The position numbers and the translations under genes were made by a program. A DNA stretch of 64,000 nt from a virus, in IMG/VR virus record IMGVR_UViG_3300035670_000113, positions 23,183-87,182 of that record; one strand, written 5' to 3'. Shown here one piece after another: positions 9,492 through 26,509 of the stretch. How positions within the stretch are numbered: the stretch's first letter is position 1; each line of letters begins with the position of its first letter. The notes beneath the pieces are model-generated. The model was not told where the DNA came from, ran no database searches, and worked only from the letters and a program-made list of their open reading frames with translations.

Positions 9492-9878
9492 ATGCGATAT
9501 CACAAAGAAGTATATGCCCCTCCCTGGTGGGAGAAAGAGGTAGGTGATCTGGTAAAGAAGATTAATTCCAAAGAGGTGAGATGGACAGAACACTCTGAGG
9601 ATAAGTTGTTTGATCTTCCTCCACGTCTAAGAAGAAATATTATTAAATTTATTACTTGCATGTGGATAGATACATCTATGGTATTTGAAGTTTACAGAGC
9701 TGATAGTATCTACAAGTTTTGTCTAAGAGTTCAAAGTCCGATCTCAAACAACGATATGGTAGTAGTAATGACCTCAGACAAAAAAGTTGTAACATTCTAC
9801 TTCAATAGGACAGAAGACATGCACTCAAACCTAAATGAGGAAGTATATGAAAGAGAGGAAAAATGCCAGCAAGAGTGA
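9492..9878 (+). CDS. conserved phage protein, possibly DUF4258/BECR-fold RNase-like
   Basis: YHKEVY start, WTEHS, VVTFYFN..D.H..L...Y ending; fold assignment is tentative. Confidence 0.45.
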   Translation: MRYHKEVYAPPWWEKEVGDLVKKINSKEVRWTEHSEDKLFDLPPRLRRNIIKFITCMWIDTSMVFEVYRADSIYKFCLRVQSPISNNDMVVVMTSDKKVVTFYFNRTEDMHSNLNEEVYEREEKCQQE

Positions 9879-18283: not shown

Positions 18284-18356
18284 GGTAATGCCTTTTTTAG
18301 TGCGTAATTTGTAAGAAAATTCGGGCATTTTGGTGAAAATTCCTTTGCTTTAACCC

Positions 18357-18385
18357 TTGACAAATGGGTGATTTTGTGCTATAAT
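18357..18385 (+). promoter_or_regulatory. sigma70-type promoter driving the tRNA array
   Basis: ACCC-TTGACA-N17-TATAAT, extended -10 TG. Confidence 0.85.
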
Positions 18386-18470: not shown

Positions 18471-18542
18471 GCCTCGGTAGTTCAGTGGTAGAACATCATA
18501 CTTGTAATATGATTGTCAGAGGTTCGATTCCTCTTCGAGGCT
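18471..18542 (+). tRNA. tRNA-Thr(TGT)
   Basis: cloverleaf, anticodon loop CTTGTAA. Confidence 0.93.
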
Positions 18543-18667
18543 CCTAAGTGGTGTGGTCAACATTCTATGGAGAGATATTTCTCTAAAAATGACAAAGACC
18601 ATATATACAAAATCGTTGAGCCTGAGTAAGCCAACAGCCACAACTAGAGTATCAGAGAGGTAATAAT

Positions 18668-18898
18668 ATGGATGAAAAAGTCTACTCTGGTGTTATACAC
18701 GAGATTAAAGATGGTAAAGTACACCACTGCATAACCATCACTATAACACAATATAGTAACTCAAAAATGCCTGAGAAGATAGATGATGGCTTCAAGTTAA
18801 TTAGCAAGTCATCCAAGAAAGTTGGGTTTCTGGAAGTTAATGGAATTTACTTCTCTGGAACTGTACATACTTTTATATTCAAAAAGTATCTGGATTGA
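18668..18898 (+). CDS. hypothetical protein
   Basis: GAGG SD, lies between tRNAs. Confidence 0.6.
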   Translation: MDEKVYSGVIHEIKDGKVHHCITITITQYSNSKMPEKIDDGFKLISKSSKKVGFLEVNGIYFSGTVHTFIFKKYLD

Positions 18899-18901
18899 TA
18901 T

Positions 18902-18974
18902 GTATCCTTAGCTCATGTAGTAGAGCACCTTCCTGAAGAGAAGGGGGTGGCTAGTGCAAGTCTAGCAGGATACA
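18902..18974 (+). tRNA. tRNA-Phe(GAA)
   Basis: cloverleaf, loop CTGAAGA; atypical D loop and TGCAAGT T loop. Confidence 0.85.
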
Positions 18975-19007
18975 CAAGAGCAGTAATACACTGCTCGAAG
19001 GAGTACC

Positions 19008-19367
19008 ATGTTACCAAAGTATCACTATGAAATTGATGCTAACACTGGGAACGAAATTAAAGTTAGAAATTATCAATGCCCTACAGGTTGTAGTGTAGGC
19101 ATAGCAGACTATCTCTGCTTTACAATAAACACTGGTAAGGCCACAATTACTACAACACCTTCAAACCTATACAATGATACAGAGGAGTGTTTAAAGATTA
19201 TTATAAGAAATACTTCTAAAAAGACTGTAAAGATTGGAGGACCACTTTCACAGGATTTATCCCTGCTTCAAAATGCTGTAATAGAAATACCTATAAACAG
19301 TGTAAGTAAGGTATTTCTAAGAACTGATAGTGGTAGTACAATAGTAGAGTATATGATTTTAGGGTGA
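19008..19367 (+). CDS. hypothetical protein
   Basis: AAGGAG SD; beta-rich 119 aa. Confidence 0.7.
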   Translation: MLPKYHYEIDANTGNEIKVRNYQCPTGCSVGIADYLCFTINTGKATITTTPSNLYNDTEECLKIIIRNTSKKTVKIGGPLSQDLSLLQNAVIEIPINSVSKVFLRTDSGSTIVEYMILG

Positions 19368-19373
19368 GTTACT

Positions 19374-19444
19374 GGGCGATTGATGTAACGGGAGCCTGAT
19401 TGCTTTGCAAGCAATTCGTAAGAGTTCGATTCTCTTATCGTCCA
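19374..19444 (+). tRNA. tRNA-Ala(TGC)
   Basis: loop TTTGCAA; G3:U70 pair present. Confidence 0.88.
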
Positions 19445-19445
19445 C

Positions 19446-19655
19446 TAGTCTAATAGCATCGGCTGAGAAACTAGGACAACACTCAGTTTGTTGCCCAGGC
19501 AATAAGTACGGTAGTCATCGAAGGTAATCTGCAAAGATATTCCTCCTAGTAGTAAGAGGTAATCCCTGATGGCAAAAGGAGTGAGTTTGCTACAATAACA
19601 ATAATCTCCGCCTACAAGAAAGGGTAAGCCGACCTGTAAAGTGTAAGCAGGATTA
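19446..19655 (+). ncRNA. candidate structured ncRNA (~210 nt)
   Basis: fills the Ala-His spacer; TCGGCT/AGCCGA long-range pairing and 3' CCTG/CAGG hairpin. Confidence 0.4.
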
Positions 19656-19656
19656 T

Positions 19657-19729
19657 GGTGGCTAGCGTATAAATGGTAGTACACTCGTCTGTGAAACGAG
19701 AGGTGAGGGATCGTTACCCTCTGGCCGCC
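19657..19729 (+). tRNA. tRNA-His(GTG)
   Basis: loop CTGTGAA; G-1:C73; T loop ATCGTTA. Confidence 0.9.
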
Positions 19730-19764
19730 CCTTGAGCTTTAAGGCTCAGAGAAAGGGATAACCA

Positions 19765-19950
19765 ATGTTAGCTGTCTTGTACGTTTCAATCAGTATAGGT
19801 GTATTTATAGCATACTTACTTGATATGGAAGGGCCTTTTGAAGGACTGCCAAAAACAATTTTTAATATACTAGGAAACTTTGTTGAGGCGTTCTTCTGGC
19901 CCATCACACTTTACATGCATATCTTTAAAAAGATTTGGGGTGATGAATGA
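19765..19950 (+). CDS. small membrane protein
   Basis: two hydrophobic segments, FFWP. Confidence 0.65.
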   Translation: MLAVLYVSISIGVFIAYLLDMEGPFEGLPKTIFNILGNFVEAFFWPITLYMHIFKKIWGDE

Positions 19951-20147
19951 AAAAAGACGCATTTCAAGTAGGCTACGATGTAAAAAGTAGTGTAATCACT
20001 GTTTTATCTCTGATTGGAATGATAGTATTATGTGTTGGAGCATTTTTAATTATATCATTTTTTGCTACACAGTTTCAATACTACACTCATCAGCCTGAGA
20101 TGAACTATGTTGTATCAATTCCAAAAACAATTATAGGAGCACACTAA
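19947..20147 (+). CDS. small membrane protein
   Basis: one long hydrophobic segment; ATGA overlap. Confidence 0.65.
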   Translation: MKKDAFQVGYDVKSSVITVLSLIGMIVLCVGAFLIISFFATQFQYYTHQPEMNYVVSIPKTIIGAH

Positions 20148-20248
20148 TGAGAACTAAAATCGCTTGGTGCAAAAGATGTAATTCATATAGAGTCTTTATT
20201 AAGATTGGATCTATTTGGAACTGCAGAGTTTGCGGAGAACAAAAATAG
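20147..20248 (+). CDS. 33 aa zinc-ribbon peptide
   Basis: own translation MRTKIAWCKRCNSYRVFIKIGSIWNCRVCGEQK; TAATG coupling, AGGAG SD. Confidence 0.65.
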   Translation: MRTKIAWCKRCNSYRVFIKIGSIWNCRVCGEQK

Positions 20249-20254
20249 AAAGAT

Positions 20255-20327
20255 GCTCCTATCTTCTAATGGACAGGAAACTAGACTCTCAATCTAGGAA
20301 TCGTGGGTTCAACTCCCCGTAGGAGCA
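20255..20327 (+). tRNA. tRNA-Glu(CTC)
   Basis: loop CTCTCAA. Confidence 0.88.
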
Positions 20328-20371
20328 CACAAATATAAAATGTTCTTTTGGTATAATATATAGGAGATAGA

Positions 20372-20494
20372 ATGTTAAACTTAATAAGAAACTTCATTAA
20401 GGCATACAAAGAAGCATGGCTTGAAGAGAAGGTTATCTTTATAGCCCTGTGCATATTCTTTATTGTTATCGTAGTTTTAGAAACCAGATTTTAG
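20372..20494 (+). CDS. 40 aa single-TM peptide
   Basis: own translation; AGGAG SD; VIFIALCIFFIVIVVL. Confidence 0.65.
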   Translation: MLNLIRNFIKAYKEAWLEEKVIFIALCIFFIVIVVLETRF

Positions 20495-20502
20495 TGGTAA
20501 AT

Positions 20503-20575
20503 GCTCCCTTCGTCTAGTGGTTAGGACATCTCCCTTTCAAGGAGAAGATGGTGGGTTCGACCCCCACAGGGAGCA
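20503..20575 (+). tRNA. tRNA-Glu(TTC)
   Basis: loop CTTTCAA. Confidence 0.93.
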
Positions 20576-20593
20576 CTGAAGCATGTAAGACAT

Positions 20594-20666
20594 TGACGAC
20601 TAGTTCAATTGGCGGAACGCCTGTCTCTGGAACAGGAGGCTCCAGGTTCGATCCCTGGGTCGTCAG
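20594..20666 (+). tRNA. tRNA-Gln(CTG)
   Basis: U1:A72, loop CTCTGGA. Confidence 0.92.
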
Positions 20667-20846
20667 CTTGGGAGTGACAATGTTACTGTAGTAAAGTCTG
20701 CATACAAGTCCTTGTGGCTTAGACTCCCAAATCGAAAATCTGTAAATCCACTATGCATAATCCTGAATAGTGGATTTACAGGCTAATGGATAACATCTTC
20801 ACTACATCATATCTTATTATAATTGAGTACAAGAAAGGAAAAACTA

Positions 20847-21113
20847 ATGTATAAAATCGAGTTCGCTCATTTCCCTAACGAGGGTGGATCTGGAAAGTTT
20901 CAAGAAAATGGTAATACGCTCAAGTATGTTGGACATACTACGTGTGTAATCCTAAAAGGTGAAGAATTAATCTCCACTGGTAAAGCATTTTGTGGAGAAA
21001 AGGATAAGTATAACAAGGAAAAAGGTCGTAAAGTGGCTCTTTCCAGGGCTATTAAAAACCTTGATAGAGATACAAGAACCACTATTTGGAATGAGTACTT
21101 TTGCAGAAAGTAA
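20847..21113 (+). CDS. conserved phage hypothetical protein
   Basis: AFC..KD.YNK.KGR..AL.RA motif; GAAAGGA SD. Confidence 0.7.
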   Translation: MYKIEFAHFPNEGGSGKFQENGNTLKYVGHTTCVILKGEELISTGKAFCGEKDKYNKEKGRKVALSRAIKNLDRDTRTTIWNEYFCRK

Positions 21114-21122
21114 AATACTGAT

Positions 21123-21196
21123 GGGTCTGTAGCTCAATTGGCTAGAGCAAGTGCCTCTTAAGCATTAGGTTCAGAGTTCAAATCTCTGCAGACTCA
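21123..21196 (+). tRNA. tRNA-Lys(CTT)
   Basis: loop CTCTTAA. Confidence 0.93.
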
Positions 21197-21212
21197 CTTA
21201 AGGATATATAAG

Positions 21213-21479
21213 ATGTCATTACTTCAAGAAGTCAGAGACTATAAAGATGTTATTACTTTTGGTAAGTATAAAGGTCATACCTACAGATACATTATTGATA
21301 TTGACCCATCCTATATTGACTGGCTAGATTCCCAAGAAATTGTAAAACTTCCAGCAAGGATGATGAAAAAAGTATTACATAATAAAAAAGAAAATGACAT
21401 ATTCTACGATGTAGATATTAGTCATGCTGACGATGACATTATTAATGGTGGATGTGACCCGAATATGTGGGGGGATTAA
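21213..21479 (+). CDS. FGKYKG-motif protein (DUF3820-like)
   Basis: ITFGKYKG......DPSYIDWL. Confidence 0.7.
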   Translation: MSLLQEVRDYKDVITFGKYKGHTYRYIIDIDPSYIDWLDSQEIVKLPARMMKKVLHNKKENDIFYDVDISHADDDIINGGCDPNMWGD

Positions 21480-21499
21480 TACACCATAAATCATCTTAT

Positions 21500-21571
21500 G
21501 CTCCTGTAGGTTAATGGATAACCGCTTCGCTACGGACGAAGAATCTGCGAGTTCGATCCTTGCCAGGAGCT
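21500..21571 (+). tRNA. tRNA-Arg(ACG)
   Basis: loop CTACGGA. Confidence 0.92.
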
Positions 21572-21583
21572 CAGTTAAATAAT

Positions 21584-21670
21584 GGAGAGTTGGCCGAGCG
21601 GTAAGGCTCTCGTCTTGAAAACGAGTGACATCTGTAAAAGGGTGCAGGGGTTCAATTCCTCTACTCTCCG
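21584..21670 (+). tRNA. tRNA-Ser(TGA)
   Basis: loop CTTGAAA, long variable arm, G73. Confidence 0.93.
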
Positions 21671-21674
21671 CCTT

Positions 21675-21926
21675 GTATCACATTTAGTAAGCAATCTAAT
21701 CACAGAAGGTTGCTGAAAATCAAGTAAGAAAAGAAAGTCTTACATGCACCAGGCATACCATTAAGATGTATGTATACTATATTAAGTTTAACTGTGAGTG
21801 TGACTTATTATAGGGTTATCAGGCTGTGACGCTTGAGATTCTACCAAAAATTCAGGTAACGACTGGAAAATGGTAGACGGTTACTAGAATCCGATGCCTT
21901 GAAATAAGGTGAGTGCAGTGTGATAC
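21675..21926 (+). ncRNA. candidate structured ncRNA (252 nt)
   Basis: 10-bp terminal stem GTATCACATT/AGTGTGATAC, several internal hairpins, fills the Ser-Ser spacer. Confidence 0.6.
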
Positions 21927-21928
21927 TT

Positions 21929-22013
21929 GGAAGATTGCCCGACCGGTAAGGGCTCGGTTTGCTAAACCGAAGGCATCCGTAAGGGTGAATAGGTTCGATT
22001 CCTATATCTTCCG
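21929..22013 (+). tRNA. tRNA-Ser(GCT)
   Basis: loop TTGCTAA, long variable arm. Confidence 0.93.
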
Positions 22014-22059
22014 CCTAAAAGACTAATAAGACAAAGATTGTCAAATTTCAAATTTACCC

Positions 22060-22088
22060 TTGACATGGCAAACATGTTGTGGTATACT
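22060..22088 (+). promoter_or_regulatory. sigma70-type promoter
   Basis: TTTACCC-TTGACA-N17-TATACT, TGTGG extended -10. Confidence 0.85.
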
Positions 22089-22152
22089 AGGGGTATGTGG
22101 ACGAAATGACCACCCCGCCTTTGGTGCAAACTGGGAATGGAAGTCCACATTA

Positions 22153-22226
22153 GCAGAAGTGGTGAAGTGGTATAACACGCTCGTCTGATAAGCGAGTATA
22201 CGCAGGTCCGAATCCTGCCTTCTGCA
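22153..22226 (+). tRNA. tRNA-Ile(GAT)
   Basis: loop CTGATAA. Confidence 0.9.
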
Positions 22227-22227
22227 C

Positions 22228-22530
22228 TAATGTCTGTGTGCCAGACTATAAAAGAACGTCCTACGGTTGAAATGGGATGTGTGGAGGTCTAACATACACA
22301 GGCTGTAAGTAACTCTGTAGTGATATTGGCAGAAGAAGAGATGCAAATTAGACCAGCATCTACTGCGCTCACATTCGGTAGCAATTAAACATGGTTAGTA
22401 GGCGAATGTGTGGGGTAGACATCCCCCCAAGACGGTGATAATTACAGGCCAGTAATTTGAGTCTTGTGAACCAGAATAATCATAGACAGAGTGAAAGCTA
22501 GGAGGCCTTACAAGCTTCCCACAGACATTA
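22228..22530 (+). ncRNA. candidate structured ncRNA (303 nt)
   Basis: perfect 11-bp terminal stem TAATGTCTGTG/CACAGACATTA, fills the Ile-Ile spacer. Confidence 0.65.
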
Positions 22531-22534
22531 ACAT

Positions 22535-22607
22535 GCTCCAGTAACTCAATGGTCAGAGTACCGCTCTTATAAGGCGTTAGTTGTAGGTTCGACTCCTACT
22601 TGGAGCA
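22535..22607 (+). tRNA. tRNA-Ile(TAT)
   Basis: loop CTTATAA, full cloverleaf. Confidence 0.88.
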
Positions 22608-22621
22608 CAGAAAGGAAATCT

Positions 22622-22789
22622 ATGAACACTCATCCAACAGAAGGAGGTTTATTGAGATATCCTGAAACAGGTGGTTTTTACGAAGAGATTCCGTGTACTT
22701 GCAAGGAGGATTGTAACGATCCTTGTAGGGGAGAATGTGGTTGTAGAGCATGTGTTAATGCTTATATAGATGTCCTGGAGTATGATTAA
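22622..22789 (+). CDS. 55 aa Cys-rich peptide
   Basis: own translation ...PCTCKEDCNDPCRGECGCRAC...; GAAAGGA SD. Confidence 0.65.
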   Translation: MNTHPTEGGLLRYPETGGFYEEIPCTCKEDCNDPCRGECGCRACVNAYIDVLEYD

Positions 22790-22801
22790 AGGCAATGTAC
22801 A

Positions 22802-22861
22802 AGACTACGAACAGCAAACTAAAAAAATTTTCCAGTCAATGAAAAAAAATAAAAGTAGTCT
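22802..22861 (+). ncRNA. CAGCAA-motif RNA, copy 1
   Basis: AGACTAC-GA-ACAGCAA...TTTTC/GAAAA hairpin...GTAGTCT. Confidence 0.7.
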
Positions 22862-22866
22862 GTTTT

Positions 22867-22952
22867 GGGTAGAAGGCGAATATGGTTTGTCGCACCTGAC
22901 TGTAAATCAGACGAGGCTCGGCCTCATGCAAGTTCGACTCTTGCTCTGCCCA
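22867..22952 (+). tRNA. tRNA-Tyr(GTA)
   Basis: loop CTGTAAA, long variable arm. Confidence 0.9.
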
Positions 22953-23017
22953 CATGTATTATTAATATTAATATATATTCAGGAGATGTGTCTTATGTAC
23001 CAATATCAGGACACTCT

Positions 23018-23092
23018 GCAACCTTGATGGGAATTGGCATACCTGGGTCCCTCAAAAGCTCCCGTTTACTGGTTCGAATCCAGTAGGTTGCA
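23018..23092 (+). tRNA. tRNA-Leu(CAA), atypical or degenerate
   Basis: intact acceptor and T arm, Leu-type D loop, loop CTCAAAA; mismatched anticodon stem and no long variable arm. Confidence 0.6.
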
Positions 23093-23113
23093 CTTATTGG
23101 CACTGCAATAAAA

Positions 23114-23190
23114 GCTCCCTTAGCTCAATTGGACAGAGCACTTCGGTCCTAACGAAGAGGTCACAGGTTCAAATCCTGTAGAGAGCACCA
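23114..23190 (+). tRNA. tRNA-Arg(CCT)
   Basis: loop GTCCTAA; encoded CCA. Confidence 0.9.
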
Positions 23191-23204
23191 AGAAAGGAGA
23201 TGCT

Positions 23205-23396
23205 ATGAAAATTTTTATGGTGATAATATACTTTCCATTGTTTGTAGTATTCTTTCCCTGGATTGTAGCATACAAACTTGCTATCAAAAATACACGTATT
23301 GATTATAATCTTAGTTATCCAATGACAATTATAGTCATAGGATATGTAGCTCAGATGGTTTATTTTGCAACGATTTTCTACGTGTTTTTGCATTAG
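23205..23396 (+). CDS. small two-TM membrane protein
   Basis: GAAAGGAG SD; hydrophobic. Confidence 0.7.
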   Translation: MKIFMVIIYFPLFVVFFPWIVAYKLAIKNTRIDYNLSYPMTIIVIGYVAQMVYFATIFYVFLH

Positions 23397-23402
23397 TAAA
23401 AT

Positions 23403-23488
23403 GCTCTTGTGGCGGAATTGGTAGACGCAACTGACTTAAAATCAGTCGGGAAATTAGTACCGTAAGGGTTCGAGTCCCTTCTTGAGCA
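23403..23488 (+). tRNA. tRNA-Leu(TAA)
   Basis: loop CTTAAAA, long variable arm; two U-U pairs in the acceptor stem. Confidence 0.88.
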
Positions 23489-23502
23489 CAGAAATGATAA
23501 AT

Positions 23503-23576
23503 GGCCCATTGGTCGAGATGGATAAGGCACTTCTCTGTCACGGAAGAAACCAGGGGTTCGAGTCCCCTATGGGCCG
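23503..23576 (+). tRNA. tRNA-Asp(GTC)
   Basis: loop CTGTCAC. Confidence 0.92.
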
Positions 23577-23613
23577 CCTTTAGTAAGTATTTATAAACAG
23601 TAAAAGGAGACTT

Positions 23614-23802
23614 ATGAAAACATTTTTAGTTCTATTAGGTATCTATATTACATTCGGATATGTATTTTCCATATCATATCTTTATGATGTATCAAGAACA
23701 TGGAACGCACATTTTGTAGGAAGAACAACACGAGAAGTTAAATTGATGGCCATTAAGAAAGCTATAATGATGGTTGTAATGTGGCCGGTTCTTTACAAAT
23801 AA
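23614..23802 (+). CDS. small membrane protein
   Basis: AAGGAG SD; two hydrophobic segments, ends in MWP. Confidence 0.7.
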   Translation: MKTFLVLLGIYITFGYVFSISYLYDVSRTWNAHFVGRTTREVKLMAIKKAIMMVVMWPVLYK

Positions 23803-23805
23803 GAT

Positions 23806-23876
23806 GGCTAGGTAAGCTAATGGTAAACTGCTGATCTCCAAAATCAGTTTTCAGGGTTCGAGTCCTTGTCTGGCCG
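23806..23876 (+). tRNA. tRNA-Trp(CCA)
   Basis: loop CTCCAAA. Confidence 0.9.
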
Positions 23877-23895
23877 CTATTAGAAAGGAGCATAT

Positions 23896-24066
23896 ATGAA
23901 TCAGTATCCTAAGGATTTACGTGATAAGCAACAGAAAAAGTTTTTAGAGAAGGGGGAAGAAGCCAGAAAAGAGTACCTGTTTCATAAGAAGTATAAGGTG
24001 GCTGTAAAACTGTCTGCACTGATTATATTCATTATGTTTATTATCAGAATCGTTATAGAAAATTAA
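23896..24066 (+). CDS. 56 aa tail-anchored membrane peptide
   Basis: own translation; GAAAGGAG SD; C-terminal LSALIIFIMFII. Confidence 0.65.
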   Translation: MNQYPKDLRDKQQKKFLEKGEEARKEYLFHKKYKVAVKLSALIIFIMFIIRIVIEN

Positions 24067-24077
24067 AAATTTATTAA

Positions 24078-24149
24078 TCCCGTCTAGCTCAATGGCAGAG
24101 CAGGAAGCTGTTAACTTCAAGGTTTGAGGTTCAAGTCCTCAGATGGGAG
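24078..24149 (+). tRNA. tRNA-Asn(GTT)
   Basis: loop CTGTTAA. Confidence 0.92.
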
Positions 24150-24153
24150 CTAA

Positions 24154-24227
24154 GGACTCGTAGTTCAGTTGGTTAGAATGTCTCTTTTACACAGAGAGGG
24201 TCGGGAGTTCGAGTCTCTCCGAGTCCA
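24154..24227 (+). tRNA. tRNA-Val(TAC)
   Basis: loop TTTACAC. Confidence 0.92.
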
Positions 24228-24253
24228 CCTATATCAAAAAGAAAGGATTCTCT

Positions 24254-24352
24254 ATGAAAGAAATCTACAAAAATCTCGATAATATTATCATATCCACTCT
24301 TATATTCATCACAGGAGTAGGCACGTTTCTGATGTTTAGATATGTTATCTAG
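24254..24352 (+). CDS. 32 aa single-TM peptide
   Basis: own translation MKEIYKNLDNIIISTLIFITGVGTFLMFRYVI; GAAAGGA SD. Confidence 0.6.
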   Translation: MKEIYKNLDNIIISTLIFITGVGTFLMFRYVI

Positions 24353-24357
24353 TATAG

Positions 24358-24428
24358 TCTCCTATCGTATAATGGAAGTATGCTTTGCTTTGAACAAAGA
24401 GGCCTCGGTTCAATTCCCTGTAGGAGAG
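24358..24428 (+). tRNA. tRNA-Gln(TTG)
   Basis: loop CTTTGAA; mismatches in the T stem. Confidence 0.8.
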
Positions 24429-24454
24429 CCTTTACACAATAGGAAGGAGTTATC

Positions 24455-24541
24455 ATGGCAATTCTAGTTTTGCTAGTTATTATTGTGGTACTTTTGTTTC
24501 TAGCCTACCTGTATTTATTCAAGAAATATTGGGACAAATGA
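24455..24541 (+). CDS. 28 aa single-TM peptide
   Basis: own translation MAILVLLVIIVVLLFLAYLYLFKKYWDK; AAGGAG SD. Confidence 0.65.
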   Translation: MAILVLLVIIVVLLFLAYLYLFKKYWDK

Positions 24542-24726
24542 AAACCATTAAGTATATTGACCCACCAGAAGGATGGAAATATGGATTTCCAAAAAAACTT
24601 CCTGATAAGATTAAGAATAAAGACATTAACAATTGGTTAATATCTCAAGGATATCCTAAGGAACTAATAGAATCCTATGGTGACAGTTTTATAGTAAGTT
24701 ACTGGACATCGAATAAGCCTCCATAA
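24538..24726 (+). CDS. conserved phage hypothetical protein
   Basis: IDPPEGWKYGFPK...WL...GYP motif; ATGA coupling; stop overlaps the tRNA-Lys 5' end. Confidence 0.7.
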   Translation: MKTIKYIDPPEGWKYGFPKKLPDKIKNKDINNWLISQGYPKELIESYGDSFIVSYWTSNKPP

Positions 24727-24790
24727 CTCAACTGGCTAGAGTATCTGCCTTTTAAGCAGGAAGTTCAGAGTTCAAATCTCTGTGGAGGCA
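24717..24790 (+). tRNA. tRNA-Lys(TTT)
   Basis: loop CTTTTAA. Confidence 0.92.
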
Positions 24791-24794
24791 CTAT

Positions 24795-24867
<73 letters not shown>

Positions 24868-24925
24868 CAATTATTAGAATTTCATTAGAATTGTGAAAGT
24901 CATATGAAATTGCCCCACTTTACCC

Positions 24926-24954
24926 TTGACAAAATTGAAATTTGATGGTATAAT
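24926..24954 (+). promoter_or_regulatory. sigma70-type promoter
   Basis: TTTACCC-TTGACA-N17-TATAAT. Confidence 0.85.
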
Positions 24955-24984
24955 AGGACATATAGGACGGCAGAAATAGGGCAT

Positions 24985-25063
24985 ATATTAATTAATATAT
25001 TAATTAATATATTAATTAATATATTAATTAATAAGCGGAATAATAAAATTTATTATTCCGCTT
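24985..25063. repeat. 4 x ATATTAATTAAT tandem repeat plus a 15-bp perfect inverted repeat
   Basis: repeats at 24985-25032; AAGCGGAATAATAAA-A-TTTATTATTCCGCTT at 25033-25063. Confidence 0.95.
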
Positions 25064-25113
25064 GATAAAAAAAAATAAAAAAAAAGAAGAAGAAAGTGAT
25101 TTTTATTTTACCC

Positions 25114-25142
25114 TTGACATATTTTAAAAATTGTGGTATAAT
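25114..25142 (+). promoter_or_regulatory. sigma70-type promoter
   Basis: TTTACCC-TTGACA-N17-TATAAT, TGTGG extended -10. Confidence 0.85.
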
Positions 25143-25175
25143 ATATACATAATAAAAAATGAAAGGAAGTAAAAA

Positions 25176-25418
25176 ATGATTCGTTCAAGTATTCACTCAA
25201 ACCAGTTTATTATTGCATCTGTCTATTACAGCGGTAAAACAGCTCATTTCTCTGTATCTGATAATCCTGTTATTCATGAGAGTTACTCAGAGGCTCTTAA
25301 GGAAGCTCAGCGTCTAGCATCTAAGTTTAATGGTAAAAAGTTTGTTGTACTTGCTATAGCCGCTATTGCTGAATTAGCTCCTGTAAGTACTCCGGTAATA
25401 ACCACTTATTCACTTTAG
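25176..25418 (+). CDS. conserved phage hypothetical protein
   Basis: H.SY.EA..EA.RLA....G..F.VL motif; GAAAGGA SD. Confidence 0.7.
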   Translation: MIRSSIHSNQFIIASVYYSGKTAHFSVSDNPVIHESYSEALKEAQRLASKFNGKKFVVLAIAAIAELAPVSTPVITTYSL

Positions 25419-25423
25419 TTTAC

Positions 25424-25711
25424 AAACATTGGTGACTGAAAGAAATCTTGACTTCGGGAACAAGGTATTTCCATAAGAATCATACTACATGGAAAGTAGG
25501 GAAGATAGGAAAGGGTAAGGTGCTGGTAAAGATATTCTTAGGACAGTAGAATTCCTAAGATCACAGGCAATGTGTATCTCACGAAGTTACACAGTACATG
25601 TAAAACCATGTCATCACGATAAAAAGAAATTGCTACTCTTTTTGTGATGTGACCGAATACCTGGAACTTCTATCATAATCTTGCAGTTAGTGACGCAACT
25701 GCCCAATGTTT
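25424..25711 (+). ncRNA. candidate structured ncRNA (288 nt)
   Basis: terminal stem AAACATTGG/CCAATGTTT, a run of internal hairpins, no ORF. Confidence 0.6.
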
Positions 25712-25717
25712 ATAAAT

Positions 25718-25792
25718 CGAGGAGTAGCTCAGTCCGGCTAGAGCACTTGCTTTGGGAGCAAGGGGTCGCAGGTTCAAATCCTGTTTCCTCGA
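25718..25792 (+). tRNA. tRNA-Pro(TGG)
   Basis: C1:G72, loop TTTGGGA. Confidence 0.94.
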
Positions 25793-25819
25793 CAGTACAT
25801 ATTTTCAAGGAGATATTAG

Positions 25820-25978
25820 ATGATTAATAAAAATCAAATTGTAACAATTATTCTATCAGTAATTTTACTGGGTGCTGGAATTGCTACTTTTGTAGTGACC
25901 AAGAATGATGCACTTTCAAATGAGCTTATGATTGGGTCTATGATATTTGTAGTGATTACCTTATTTCTAAAACAGTAG
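25820..25978 (+). CDS. 52 aa two-TM peptide
   Basis: own translation; AAGGAG SD. Confidence 0.65.
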   Translation: MINKNQIVTIILSVILLGAGIATFVVTKNDALSNELMIGSMIFVVITLFLKQ

Positions 25979-25984
25979 ATTGAT

Positions 25985-26040
25985 TGATTGCTTACAGCAA
26001 ATACTACTCTTTGGCTTCATGTCAAGTATAGGGGCAATCA
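25985..26040 (+). ncRNA. CAGCAA-motif RNA, copy 2
   Basis: TGATTGC-TT-ACAGCAA...TTGG-CTTCATG-TCAA...GCAATCA. Confidence 0.7.
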
Positions 26041-26052
26041 GTAAAATAACTT

Positions 26053-26124
26053 AGCGGGTGGTGGGCAAGGAGTCCAAAGAGCCTCATAAGCTCTTATAGC
26101 ACAATTCAATTTTGTGACCCGCTA
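26053..26124 (+). tRNA. tRNA with CAT anticodon (Met or Ile2), atypical
   Basis: acceptor AGCGGGT/ACCCGCT, loop CTCATAA; short D loop, T stem CACAA/TTGTG. Confidence 0.75.
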
Positions 26125-26127
26125 CAT

Positions 26128-26183
26128 GGACTTCATACAGCAACTAATAAATTTTTTCATTTGGAGAAAAAAAACCGAAGTCC
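26128..26183 (+). ncRNA. CAGCAA-motif RNA, copy 3
   Basis: GGACTTC-AT-ACAGCAA...TTTTTTC-ATTTGGA-GAAAAAA...GAAGTCC. Confidence 0.7.
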
Positions 26184-26189
26184 GTATTT

Positions 26190-26302
26190 GCCGAGATAGC
26201 TCAATGGTAGAGCACTAAAAAATTTTAGTCAGTAGATTAGTATCAGCAATAACTATAACCTTTGCAGGGTAGTGGTTCTAGGTTCGACTCCTAGTCTCGG
26301 CA
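26190..26302 (+). ncRNA. tRNA-like RNA with a 41-nt CAGCAA-motif insertion (copy 4)
   Basis: intact acceptor, D and T arms; insertion at 26218-26258 in the 5' strand of the anticodon stem. Confidence 0.8.
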
Positions 26303-26431
26303 CTAGTCACATAGGAATATGTGACTCCCACAAGCCCATTGGCGGTGCAAACCAATTAAAAAACACTTCAGAGTTTTTACCGCATAGATTTTCTCAAGGA
26401 CAAAAAAATCTATGCACACTTATATAGATTT

Positions 26432-26502
26432 GAGGCTATGGTCTATGGGTTGGGCCTCTGCCTTCCAAGCAGATGAACTGAGTTCGAGTCTCAGTAGCCT
26501 CT
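26432..26502 (+). tRNA. tRNA-Gly(TCC)
   Basis: loop CTTCCAA, U73. Confidence 0.88.
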
Positions 26503-26509
26503 TAAGTTA

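What the first reader, a model, noticed from the sequence alone, without database searches (positions are those of the whole stretch)
26190..26302. tRNA interrupted by a 41-nt circularly permuted CAGCAA module
Seen: removing 26218-26258 gives a fully paired 72-nt cloverleaf, GCCGAGA-TA-GCTC-AATGGTA-GAGC-A-CTACC-TTTGCAG-GGTAG-TGGTT-CTAGG-TTCGACT-CCTAG-TCTCGGC-A. The insert holds the motif helix in reversed order (TTAGTC-AGTA-GATTAG, closed by a tetraloop) followed by TATCAGCAA. The nominal anticodon TGC (Ala) lacks the G3:U70 Ala determinant. The insert is far too short for a group I or II intron. Inference: a tRNA-mimic/protein-binding chimera, conceptually like YrlA but keeping native tRNA ends, or less likely a new protein-spliced mini-intron.
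Basis: partly seen in the sequence, partly recalled or inferred. Interest (0 to 1): 0.85.

Follow-up and report, generated by a model that had tools for sequence, protein, structure and literature searches.

The report
tRNA-shaped RNA carrying a protein-docking handle
This phage gene makes an RNA with a complete tRNA shape plus an extra arm, and that arm matches the small RNAs beside a Ro60-like RNA-binding protein gene, so it is most likely that protein's partner RNA and not a broken or intron-bearing tRNA.

Summary
Window 26190-26302 is a full tRNA body (Rfam tRNA, 53.1 bits) with a 41-nt insert in the 5' strand of the anticodon stem. The insert is a capped 6-bp hairpin, 3 nt, then CAGCAA. 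That is the circular permutation of four free-standing helix-plus-CAGCAA modules in the same tRNA array.

It is not a random insertion. A covariance model built only from six similar elements in other phages finds it at 66.2 bits, while ordinary tRNAs score 50.2 or less. All helices covary, including the one bridging the insert.

The module clusters next to DUF2828 genes: 1.05 per kb near the gene against 0.044 per kb on the opposite strand, in 79 of 94 loci. Here the gene starts 292 nt downstream.

A decoding role is unlikely:
- The loop triplet duplicates a canonical tRNA in 7 of 7 arrays.
- Alanine identity (G3:U70) is absent.
- The positional counterpart in the nearest relative keeps the handle but has no anticodon arm.
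- The phage encodes no RtcB, Rnl2-type ligase or tRNA-splicing endonuclease.

Best reading: a Y-RNA-like, tRNA-shaped partner of a Ro60-like protein, a permuted YrlA layout. No RNA data exist and binding is untested. The scan has noted this class before in other genomes. I found it in neither Rfam nor the papers searched.

The parts
26190..26302 (+). Whole element: a tRNA body with a handle-bearing extra arm (113 nt; no CCA encoded)
   Evidence: Rfam tRNA 53.1 bits, full length. Model R1, built without this sequence, scores it 66.2 bits, E 1.8e-14.
26190..26196 (+). Acceptor stem, 5' strand; pairs with 26295-26301. Discriminator A at 26302.
   Evidence: 7 of 7 standard pairs. This helix covaries in 6 of 7 pairs across 7 members.
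26199..26213 (+). D arm (GCTC-AATGGTA-GAGC)
   Evidence: 4 of 4 pairs. Aligned to the Rfam tRNA D arm.
26215..26217 (+). First three nucleotides of the anticodon-stem 5' strand (CTA), pairing across the insert with 26270-26272
   Evidence: The bridging helix is paired in 7 of 7 members, with changes on both sides in 2 of 2 modelled pairs.
26218..26258 (+). The 41-nt insert: A-rich linker, handle hairpin, spacer, CAGCAA, linker
   Evidence: ARAGORN with introns allowed places a 43-nt intron at 29/30.
26225..26240 (+). Handle hairpin TTAGTC-AGTA-GATTAG: the module helix with its outer end capped
   Evidence: 6 of 6 standard pairs, two of them G-U. Homologous hairpins covary in other members.
26244..26249 (+). 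CAGCAA motif, 3 nt after the handle strand, the same spacing as in the free-standing modules
26259..26272 (+). Rest of the anticodon arm: CC, loop TTTGCAG (U33, A37, triplet UGC), GGTAG
   Evidence: A canonical tRNA-Ala(UGC) with G3:U70 lies at 19374-19445.
26278..26294 (+). T arm (CTAGG-TTCGACT-CCTAG)
22803..22862 (+). Free-standing module 1 (GACTAC ... CAGCAA ... GTAGTC-TG)
25986..26041 (+). Free-standing module 2 (GATTGC ... CAGCAA ... GCAATC-AG)
26129..26184 (+). Free-standing module 3 (GACTTC ... CAGCAA ... GAAGTC-CG); fills the spacer between tRNA-Met and the element
26510..26588 (+). Free-standing module 4, in the leader of the DUF2828 gene. It holds an anticodon-like hairpin and a T-arm-like hairpin. 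Its 3' strand GGAATC covers the Shine-Dalgarno region.
26594..28015 (+). DUF2828 + DUF7788 protein gene (473 aa), the presumed partner protein
   Evidence: Pfam E 2.7e-43 and 4.7e-31. PHROG 850 'RNA-binding protein', E 2.1e-123. Nearest other named families in the ESM Atlas are all TROVE.

Best explanation
The element is a non-decoding, tRNA-shaped small RNA. It belongs to a family of phage RNAs that share one docking handle: a 6-bp helix, 3 nt, then single-stranded CAGCAA.

Proposed mechanism, with each step marked:
1. It is transcribed within the tRNA operon (inferred).
2. Its ends are matured like those of its tRNA neighbours, and CCA is added by the host (inferred).
3. It folds into a tRNA L-shape whose anticodon stem carries an extra arm (shown by covariation).
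4. The extra arm is the same handle that closes the free-standing modules in the array and in the leader of the adjacent DUF2828 gene, but circularly permuted. The RNA ends sit at the acceptor stem and the handle is capped by a tetraloop (shown).
5. The Ro60-like DUF2828 protein binds this handle (inferred from gene-RNA linkage). The result is a Ro60/Y-RNA-type particle that displays a tRNA body.
6. By analogy with Ro60-YrlA, the tRNA body recruits or competes for tRNA-binding factors (inferred; the effector is unknown).
7. The handle copy over the ribosome-binding site of the protein's own mRNA would let the protein limit its own synthesis (inferred).
For: 1. Conserved class.
- ARAGORN with introns allowed, run on 95 loci, picked out similar elements near DUF2828 genes.
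- Model R1 was built from six of them without the window. Over 1,382,239 bases it scores the window element 66.2 bits. The seven hits to its seed sequences, one a duplicate locus, score 120.8-132.6. The best ordinary tRNA scores 50.2.

2. Structure.
- On 7 members, 98.4% of cells are paired.
- 18 of 27 pairs have changes on both sides.
- 0 of 500 shuffles reach any observed measure.
- Slid controls give 37-47% paired.
- The helix bridging the insert covaries in 2 of 2 pairs.

3. Handle linked to the DUF2828 gene.
- Modules lie at 1.05 per kb within 700 nt of the gene on its strand.
- The rate is 0.095 per kb elsewhere on that strand and 0.044 per kb on the other strand.
- 79 of 94 loci have at least one.

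4. A search that did not use the protein.
- The pattern CAGCAA-N20-40-GGTTCGAATCC was scanned over viral contigs, then filtered with R1.
- This gave 15 long hits in 11 records.
- 6 of the 11 have DUF2828 in the fetched stretch.
- 3 of the other 5 have it elsewhere in the record.
- The 2 misses are fragments 37% and 29% complete.
- For scale, 707 of 50,697 GenBank phage records hold a homologue.

5. Not decoding.
- The loop triplet matches a canonical tRNA in the same array in 7 of 7 cases.
- The window element has C3:G70 while the true tRNA-Ala has G3:U70.
- Two members have a GCU triplet on a body with a short variable loop.
- The six seed sequences carry four different triplets on a body with 79% mean column identity.

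6. Nearest relative, L016 (51% protein identity).
- The gene order is the same: tRNA-Pro, tRNA-Met, element, tRNA, module, DUF2828.
- Its element keeps the acceptor stem, T arm and permuted handle but has no anticodon arm.

7. Mycobacterium phage Zakai.
- Its 'Ro-like RNA binding protein' is a DUF2828 homologue (32% identity, E 9e-85).
- It is followed by an RNA with the opposite permutation. The handle and the tRNA body join at the same point in the anticodon stem, and 27 of 27 proposed pairs are standard.

8. 3' ends.
- Members follow each genome's habit for tRNA genes.
- CCA is encoded in 6 of 6 seed members, whose arrays nearly all encode it.
- It is absent here, where 1 of 27 tRNAs has it.

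9. Ro60 likeness of the protein.
- With DUF2828 clusters excluded, 30 of 30 nearest named ESM Atlas clusters carry TROVE, at scores 0.91-0.92.
Against: - No RNA data. No RNA run holds this DNA, so expression, ends and the unspliced state are untested.
- Binding of DUF2828 to the handle is inferred from linkage only.
- ViennaRNA prefers a different pairing of this copy's insert (-34.9 against -22.0 kcal/mol). The handle helix has two G-U pairs.
- The window copy scores much lower than the seed sequences (66 against 121-133 bits), so it is a divergent member.
- The Ro60 relation is weak by sequence. Pfam TROVE finds nothing in this genome. A profile of 25 homologues finds no Ro60 in the PDB sequences, only a weak vWA match at E 0.036. 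Shared Atlas features are 153-160 of 256, below the 170 typical within a family.
- Cys is the only amino acid without a tRNA in this genome, and one reading of the element gives GCA.
- The strict class was found in only 7 of 94 DUF2828 loci.
Confidence: 0.72

Rival explanations
1. It is an intron-bearing decoding tRNA. A protein-dependent activity, perhaps guided by the handle, would excise the 41-43 nt insert and the exons would be ligated. The product would be a working tRNA: Cys(GCA), which the phage otherwise lacks, or a second UGC tRNA.
For: - Removing 41 nt restores a fully paired cloverleaf with U33 and A37. Removing 43 nt gives GCA.
- The genome has 28 ARAGORN tRNAs covering every amino acid except Cys.
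- Members carry tRNA-style ends and CCA.
Against: - The Cys reading needs an A.G mismatch and loses position 26. The class alignment supports the UGC register.
- The discriminator is A73 and 3:70 is C:G. From recall, Cys needs U73 and Ala needs G3:U70.
- The triplet is redundant with a canonical tRNA in 7 of 7 arrays.
- GCU members lack the long variable arm of tRNA-Ser.
- The L016 counterpart has no anticodon arm.
- The Zakai RNA has the same join with a capped acceptor stem, which splicing cannot explain.
- The complete genome has no RtcB, Rnl2-type ligase or tRNA-intron endonuclease. The Rnl1 search was uninformative because its control was silent.
- No ribozyme or intron family matches 26100-26400 at E up to 10.
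Confidence: 0.07
2. It is a dead tRNA gene. A tRNA was disrupted when a copy of the locally abundant module inserted or recombined into it, and it is now decaying without function.
For: - The window copy is the weakest member (66.2 bits).
- Its handle has two G-U pairs and is not in the MFE fold.
- There are no expression data.
- KVP40's record annotates pseudo-tRNAs in a comparable array.
Against: - All 27 pairs are intact.
- The same design is found in unrelated phages, with compensatory changes in every helix.
- The spacing between helix and CAGCAA is exact.
- The positional counterpart in L016 keeps the handle.
- The sequence is identical in the three metagenome runs that cover it. These come from one study, one run may be the source of this DNA, and one covers only the first 21 nt of the element.
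Confidence: 0.08
3. This is a functional refinement, compatible with the main structural reading. The particle would act as a bait or decoy for host enzymes that attack tRNA anticodon loops. The displayed loop would copy a vulnerable tRNA, and the bound protein would trap, block or report the nuclease.
For: - The loop triplet equals that of a canonical tRNA in the same array in 7 of 7 cases.
- The triplet changes between otherwise similar members: GUC, GCU, GUU, UCU and UGC.
- Free-standing modules also hold anticodon-like hairpins.
- A review of jumbo phages places ROT/TROVE proteins with tRNA-like partners among RNA-repair systems (PMC7824862, passages read).
Against: - No nuclease or defence system was identified here, and the host is unknown.
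- The L016 counterpart has no anticodon arm.
- With 20-37 tRNAs per array, a match of triplets is not rare. It would also be expected if the loops simply descend from tRNAs.
Confidence: 0.2

Closest known systems
YrlA-type Y RNAs bound by bacterial and phage Ro60/Rsr (Rfam RF02553; Chen et al. 2014, PMC4201824, passages read)
   Same: - A small RNA encoded next to a ring-protein-plus-vWA gene.
- It combines a protein-binding helix with a tRNA-like domain (D arm, T arm, acceptor stem).
- M. smegmatis YrlA is cut by RNase P and receives CCA, so open tRNA-like ends have a precedent.
   Different: - The partner gene is DUF2828/DUF7788, not Pfam TROVE.
- The handle is a helix plus CAGCAA, not the GNCGAAN0-1G motif.
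- The topology is permuted: the ends are at the acceptor stem and the handle is capped.
- A full anticodon arm is present.
- The Rfam YrlA model gives no hit on the element. On the Zakai relative it reaches only 21.4 bits against a gathering score of 69.
Thermus phage phiLo Ro60 with Yrl1 and Yrl2 (PMC12135203, passages read)
   Same: A phage-encoded Ro60-type protein with partner RNAs encoded just upstream of its gene.
   Different: - Those RNAs have a stem-bulge-stem form with a CGAA motif and no complete tRNA body.
- That protein is a canonical Ro60 fold. A DUF2828 profile finds no Ro60 among PDB sequences.
Intron-bearing tRNAs: archaeal and eukaryal bulge-helix-bulge introns, and bacterial group I introns in tRNA genes
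   Same: An insert in the anticodon arm whose removal restores a cloverleaf.
   Different: - At 41 nt the insert is far too short for a group I intron, and no intron or ribozyme family matches.
- The genome has no splicing endonuclease gene.
- The insert itself is a conserved, covarying, protein-linked module.
Dictyostelid Class I RNAs (Rfam RF01414; Kjellin et al. 2021, PMC7919456, passages read)
   Same: The free-standing modules share the design: a short 5'/3' stem starting with G, then the ...UACAGCAA motif next to the 5' strand, a variable interior, and a tail of UG in module 1 (AG or CG in modules 2-4). Modules 1 and 3 give weak Rfam hits of 28.7 and 26.8 bits.
   Different: - The scores are below the gathering score of 41.5.
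- The paper reports no Class I RNAs outside Dictyostelia.
- The tRNA-borne copy is permuted.
- Any link to a DUF2828 protein in amoebae was not tested here.

Membership tests
Canonical decoding tRNA | Cloverleaf with acceptor stem, D arm, T arm, and a 7-nt anticodon loop with U33 and a purine at 37 | tested here: met
   Rfam tRNA 53.1 bits, full length. Helices checked. Loop TTTGCAG.
Canonical decoding tRNA | Continuous 5-bp anticodon stem | tested here: not met
   41 nt lie between stem positions 29 and 30.
Canonical decoding tRNA | Identity elements that match the anticodon: G3:U70 for Ala, U73 for Cys (rules recalled, from E. coli) | tested here: not met
   3:70 is C:G and the discriminator is A (read directly). 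The phage's own tRNA-Ala has G3:U70.
Intron-bearing tRNA | A recognisable intron type: group I core, or bulge-helix-bulge at the splice sites | tested here: not met
   No intron or ribozyme family matches 26100-26400 at E up to 10. I saw no convincing bulge-helix-bulge by eye; no dedicated tool was used.
Intron-bearing tRNA | Splicing endonuclease and RNA ligase available | tested here: inconclusive
   The complete phage genome has no PF01974, PF01139 or PF09414. The PF09511 control was silent. The host's enzymes are unknown.
Intron-bearing tRNA | A spliced product exists | not testable with these tools
   No RNA run holds this DNA.
YrlA (Rfam RF02553) | Match to the family model at its gathering score (69 bits) | tested here: not met
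   No YrlA hit on the element at E up to 10.
YrlA (Rfam RF02553) | Encoded beside a TROVE (Ro60/Rsr) gene | tested here: not met
   PF05731 has no match in the genome. The neighbour is DUF2828/DUF7788. TROVE is its nearest other family in the Atlas, which is only a lead.
YrlA (Rfam RF02553) | A tRNA-like D arm, T arm and acceptor stem joined to a protein-binding helix | tested here: met
   The order of the parts is permuted.
CAGCAA-handle RNAs of DUF2828 phages (unnamed; not in Rfam 15) | A 6-bp helix, 3 nt, then CAGCAA | tested here: met
   GATTAG-TAT-CAGCAA with partner strand TTAGTC. The four free-standing modules have the same spacing.
CAGCAA-handle RNAs of DUF2828 phages (unnamed; not in Rfam 15) | Lies near a DUF2828 gene, on its strand | tested here: met
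   The element ends 292 nt before the start codon at 26594.
tRNA bodies with a permuted handle in the anticodon stem (model R1) | Scores above ordinary tRNAs with a model built from other members | tested here: met
   66.2 bits against 50.2 or less for ordinary tRNAs.
CAGCAA-handle RNAs of DUF2828 phages (unnamed; not in Rfam 15) | Bound by the DUF2828 protein | not testable with these tools
   No RNA-protein prediction tool or binding data were available.

The most novel reading that the evidence does not exclude
The insert is a true protein-dependent tRNA intron of bacteriophages. The Ro60-like DUF2828 protein would recognise the handle and direct host or unknown phage enzymes to cut it out and rejoin the tRNA. 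Decoding by this tRNA would then be switched on only when the protein is present. This would be a third kind of tRNA splicing, found in bacteria.
Probability: 0.06. Interest if true: 0.92.

Novelty: new variant of a known kind. Interest (0 to 1): 0.6.

Why it matters
Ro60 and its Y RNAs are a conserved RNA-surveillance particle, and the role of the tRNA-like part of bacterial Y RNAs is still open.

- DUF2828 has no known function in Pfam, although some phage records annotate homologues as RNA-binding or Ro-like. Homologues occur in 707 of 50,697 GenBank phage records, including phages of Vibrio, Listeria, Staphylococcus, Escherichia and Mycobacterium. These data assign it a specific RNA handle.
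- The handle can be fused to a complete tRNA in either circular permutation. This suggests that what matters is displaying a tRNA body on the protein, not the position of the RNA ends.
- That gives a direct experimental route to the question of what tRNA mimicry by Y RNAs is for. It can be pursued in tractable phage-host pairs such as cluster L mycobacteriophages in M. smegmatis or KVP40 in Vibrio.
- It is also a warning for annotation. Such genes are missed by default tRNA finders or named as tRNAs; Zakai's is annotated tRNA-Thr.

Tried and rejected
- Close relatives by DNA. blastn of 25600-27000 against GenBank phages matched only ordinary tRNA pieces. An exact 27-nt pattern from the element found nothing in viral contigs. 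The PolA protein found no relative by single-sequence patterns.
- blastn of three other members against GenBank phages. The L059 member gave T-arm matches only. The L136 member gave nothing. The L125 member led to the cluster L mycobacteriophages.
- Sequencing runs. No RNA holder was listed; four DNA runs from one study hold the stretch. Laying their contigs showed no variant of the element. The 'joints' at 26214/26215-26274 are ordinary tRNAs of other organisms, with 17-18 other letters in between.
- Rfam. No family other than tRNA covers the element. Eight DUF2828 loci scanned at E up to 1 gave no family for the modules.
- PDB sequence search with a 25-sequence profile found no Ro60. NCBIfam found no family.
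- Literature searches were DUF2828, Class I RNA (36), YrlA + phage (49), tRNA-like/bacteriophage/Ro60/Y RNA (50), TROVE/phage/tRNA/vWA (74) and ACAGCAA + tRNA (75). None of the papers listed by these searches, judged from their titles and abstract openings, describes CAGCAA-handle RNAs or a tRNA with such an insert. Supplementary tables of Chen et al. 2014, which list the phage YrlA RNAs, were closed and may overlap the cluster L phage RNAs.
- My first handle coordinates were wrong by four bases and gave four false non-pairs. They were corrected.
- The Cys reading was rejected as the primary reading (see rivals).
- The loose permuted-module script also flagged two minus-strand sites, 58916-58939 and 62649-62676. 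They lie in a CAGCAA-rich stretch and I did not follow them.
This report is the same text with that field added.
Full report
CONTEXT

The window is bases 23183-87182 of an 87,182-bp IMG/VR phage record with direct terminal repeats. Positions 18471-28475 hold a tRNA array:
- 27 genes by ARAGORN.
- One more seen only by Rfam, at 20255-20327.
- The element in question, at 26190-26302.

Downstream lie a DUF2828+DUF7788 gene (26594-28015), then a GNAT acetyltransferase, DNA polymerase A, RecA and, further downstream, DnaB. The runs that hold this DNA are labelled subsurface and soil metagenomes from one study. The host is unknown.

THE OBSERVATION

- Rfam's tRNA model matches end to end at 53.1 bits, with 52 nt where the model expects 11.
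- The insert, 26218-26258, sits in the 5' strand of the anticodon stem.
- It consists of an A-rich linker, the hairpin TTAGTC-AGTA-GATTAG, the spacer TAT, CAGCAA, and a 9-nt linker.
- All 27 pairs of the cloverleaf-plus-hairpin structure are standard pairs.
- Removing the 41 nt gives a sequence that ARAGORN calls tRNA-Ala(tgc).

Two cautions apply.
- ARAGORN with introns allowed prefers a 43-nt removal that reads Cys(gca), at the cost of an A.G mismatch.
- ViennaRNA prefers another pairing of the insert: -34.9 against -22.0 kcal/mol. The whole RNA is still more stable than shuffles (z -3.48; 0 of 200 shuffles fold as well).

THE MODULE

Four free-standing elements in the array have the same helix, spacer and CAGCAA arrangement, but with the partner strand downstream. 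They are 22803-22862, 25986-26041, 26129-26184 and 26510-26588.

In the tRNA-borne copy the outer end of the helix is closed by AGTA, and the inner end opens into the tRNA. This is a true circular permutation.

The fourth module lies in the leader of the DUF2828 gene, and its 3' strand covers the Shine-Dalgarno region.

LINK TO THE PROTEIN GENE

I fetched 94 IMG/VR loci that encode DUF2828 homologues of 38-51% identity. Module density was:
- 1.05 per kb within 700 nt of the gene ends on the gene's strand.
- 0.095 per kb elsewhere on that strand.
- 0.044 per kb on the other strand.

79 of 94 loci have at least one module near the gene.

Vibrio phage KVP40 has several modules in its tRNA array. 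One has a 3' strand that includes the start codon of its DUF2828 gene.

Rfam 15 has no family for these modules. Two window copies resemble dictyostelid Class I RNAs below threshold.

THE INTERRUPTED tRNA IS A CONSERVED CLASS

ARAGORN with introns allowed, run on all 95 loci, picked out further tRNA bodies carrying a hairpin plus CAGCAA before the anticodon hairpin.

I built model R1 from six of them, leaving the window out. Over 1.38 Mb the scores were:
- Seed sequences: 120.8-132.6 bits.
- The window element: 66.2 bits (E 1.8e-14).
- The best ordinary tRNA: 50.2 bits.

On the seven-member alignment:
- 98.4% of cells are paired.
- 18 of 27 pairs show changes on both sides.
- No shuffle out of 500 reaches any observed measure.
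- Slid controls give 37-47% paired.
- The two modelled pairs that bridge the insert are C-G or U-A, and U-A or G-C, and are paired in 7 of 7 members.

The alignment was fitted to the model and has only seven rows, so these figures lean towards the structure. The compensatory changes are nevertheless plain in the raw sequences.

A SEARCH THAT DID NOT USE THE PROTEIN

The pattern CAGCAA-N20-40-GGTTCGAATCC was scanned over viral contigs. Scanning those with R1 gave 15 further long hits in 11 records. Their handle sequences are very different, but the layout is the same.
- 6 of the 11 have DUF2828 within the fetched stretch, mostly a few hundred nt away.
- 3 of the remaining 5 have the family's C-terminal domain elsewhere in the record.
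- The 2 misses are fragments 37% and 29% complete.
- Both of the complete records among the five checked have it.

For scale, 707 of 50,697 GenBank phage records hold a homologue.

DECODING OR NOT

- The genome has no tRNA-Cys (28 ARAGORN tRNAs), which keeps the Cys reading alive. The class alignment, however, puts the loop in the UGC register.
- A canonical tRNA-Ala(UGC) with G3:U70 exists at 19374-19445, whereas the element has C3:G70 and A73.
- In all 6 other members a canonical tRNA with the same triplet lies in the same array, making 7 of 7 with the window.
- The members are not copies of those tRNAs.
- Two members show GCU on a body with a short variable loop. From recalled identity rules, such a body could not serve as tRNA-Ser.
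- The six seed sequences share 79% mean column identity but carry four different triplets.
- The complete genome has no RtcB, Rnl2-type ligase or tRNA-splicing endonuclease. The Rnl1 search was uninformative.

TWO INFORMATIVE RELATIVES

L016, the closest DUF2828 relative (51% identity):
- It has the same gene order: tRNA-Pro, tRNA-Met, element, tRNA, leader module, DUF2828.
- Its element, 9613-9705, keeps the acceptor stem, a T arm, a D-like hairpin and a permuted handle, but has no anticodon arm.
- The handle hairpin is in its MFE fold.

Mycobacterium phage Zakai:
- It encodes a 'Ro-like RNA binding protein' that is a DUF2828 homologue (32% identity over the full length, E 9e-85).
- Just downstream lie three handle RNAs.
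- The middle one, L215:2497-2618, reads in this order: handle 5' strand, CAGCAA, three stem nucleotides, anticodon loop, stem 3' strand, T arm, an acceptor stem closed by a loop, D arm, two stem nucleotides, A-rich linker, handle 3' strand.
- 27 of 27 proposed pairs are standard.
- This is the same two-dimensional design as the window element, opened at the other helix, with the same join inside the anticodon stem.
- Its T arm, capped acceptor stem and D arm align weakly to Rfam YrlA (21.4 bits against a gathering score of 69).
- Part of it is annotated as tRNA-Thr.

THE PROTEIN

- Pfam names only DUF2828 and DUF7788, with a weak vWA hint.
- PHROG 850 calls it an RNA-binding protein.
- Pfam TROVE does not match anywhere in the genome.
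- A 25-sequence profile finds no Ro60 among PDB sequences.
- With its own families excluded, all 30 nearest named clusters in the ESM Atlas carry TROVE (scores 0.91-0.92; 153-160 of 256 shared features). This is a lead for a distant relationship.

READING

The most economical explanation is a Y-RNA-like partner RNA of a Ro60-like protein, built on a complete tRNA body. The closest known system is Ro60 with YrlA, whose M. smegmatis form is even cut by RNase P and given CCA (PMC4201824, passages read). It differs in protein family, handle motif, topology and the presence of an anticodon arm.

What the tRNA body does is unknown. Recruiting or titrating tRNA-binding enzymes, or acting as bait for anticodon nucleases, are the leading ideas.

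The intron and pseudogene readings remain possible at low odds.

EARLIER NOTES OF THIS SCAN

Other agents have reported the same handle and the same tRNA-borne permutation in many other genomes and reached the same reading. I consulted those reports only after forming mine; the first readers' notes on this genome I had seen. These are unchecked AI notes and are not counted as evidence.

I found no description of the class in Rfam 15 or in the papers searched.

Noticed in passing
window 22803-22862 and 26129-26184: Free-standing modules give weak Rfam hits to dictyostelid Class I RNA (28.7 and 26.8 bits; gathering score 41.5). The design is shared: a stem starting with G, then ...UACAGCAA, a variable interior, and a tail of UG in the first of the two (CG in the second). 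The Class I paper reports none outside Dictyostelia (PMC7919456, passages read).
   Followed up: partly
window 26510-26588; L096:8960-9006 (KVP40): A handle module sits in the leader of the DUF2828 gene. Its 3' strand covers the Shine-Dalgarno region in the window and the start codon in KVP40. This suggests the protein regulates its own translation.
   Followed up: partly
L215:2436-2700 (Mycobacterium phage Zakai, KX580961.1): Three handle RNAs follow the 'Ro-like RNA binding protein' gene. The middle one is a circularly permuted tRNA with a capped acceptor stem, and part of it is annotated as tRNA-Thr. A band-7-like gene lies upstream.
   Followed up: partly
window 20255-20327: A tRNA found by Rfam (48.7 bits) but not by ARAGORN. 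By eye its loop reads CUC (Glu).
   Followed up: no
L016:9243-9315: A module-like element with ACTGCAA in place of CAGCAA and an internal T-arm-like hairpin. It may be a motif variant.
   Followed up: no
L016:12240-12311: ARAGORN calls a tRNA with anticodon CTA (an amber reader, labelled Pyl) in the closest relative's array.
   Followed up: no
L013:6127-6319 and L004:6796-7288: A group I intron (Rfam 57.1 bits) lies among tRNAs in one DUF2828 locus. A phage-borne tmRNA (80.1 bits) lies in another.
   Followed up: no
window 61200-63500: A dense run of CAGCAA on both strands, 13 of the window's 56 matches. It is probably coding repeats. My loose script flagged two chance-level permuted modules on the minus strand, at 58916-58939 and 62649-62676; only the second lies in this stretch.
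   Followed up: no
window 26306-26326: A perfect hairpin, GTCACATAGGAATATGTGAC, lies directly after the element. It may be a processing or termination signal.
   Followed up: no
window 18355-18385 and 22060-22095: Near-consensus sigma-70-type promoters (TTGACA, about 17 nt, TATAAT) lie ahead of parts of the tRNA array. This points to a bacterial host with standard promoters.
   Followed up: no
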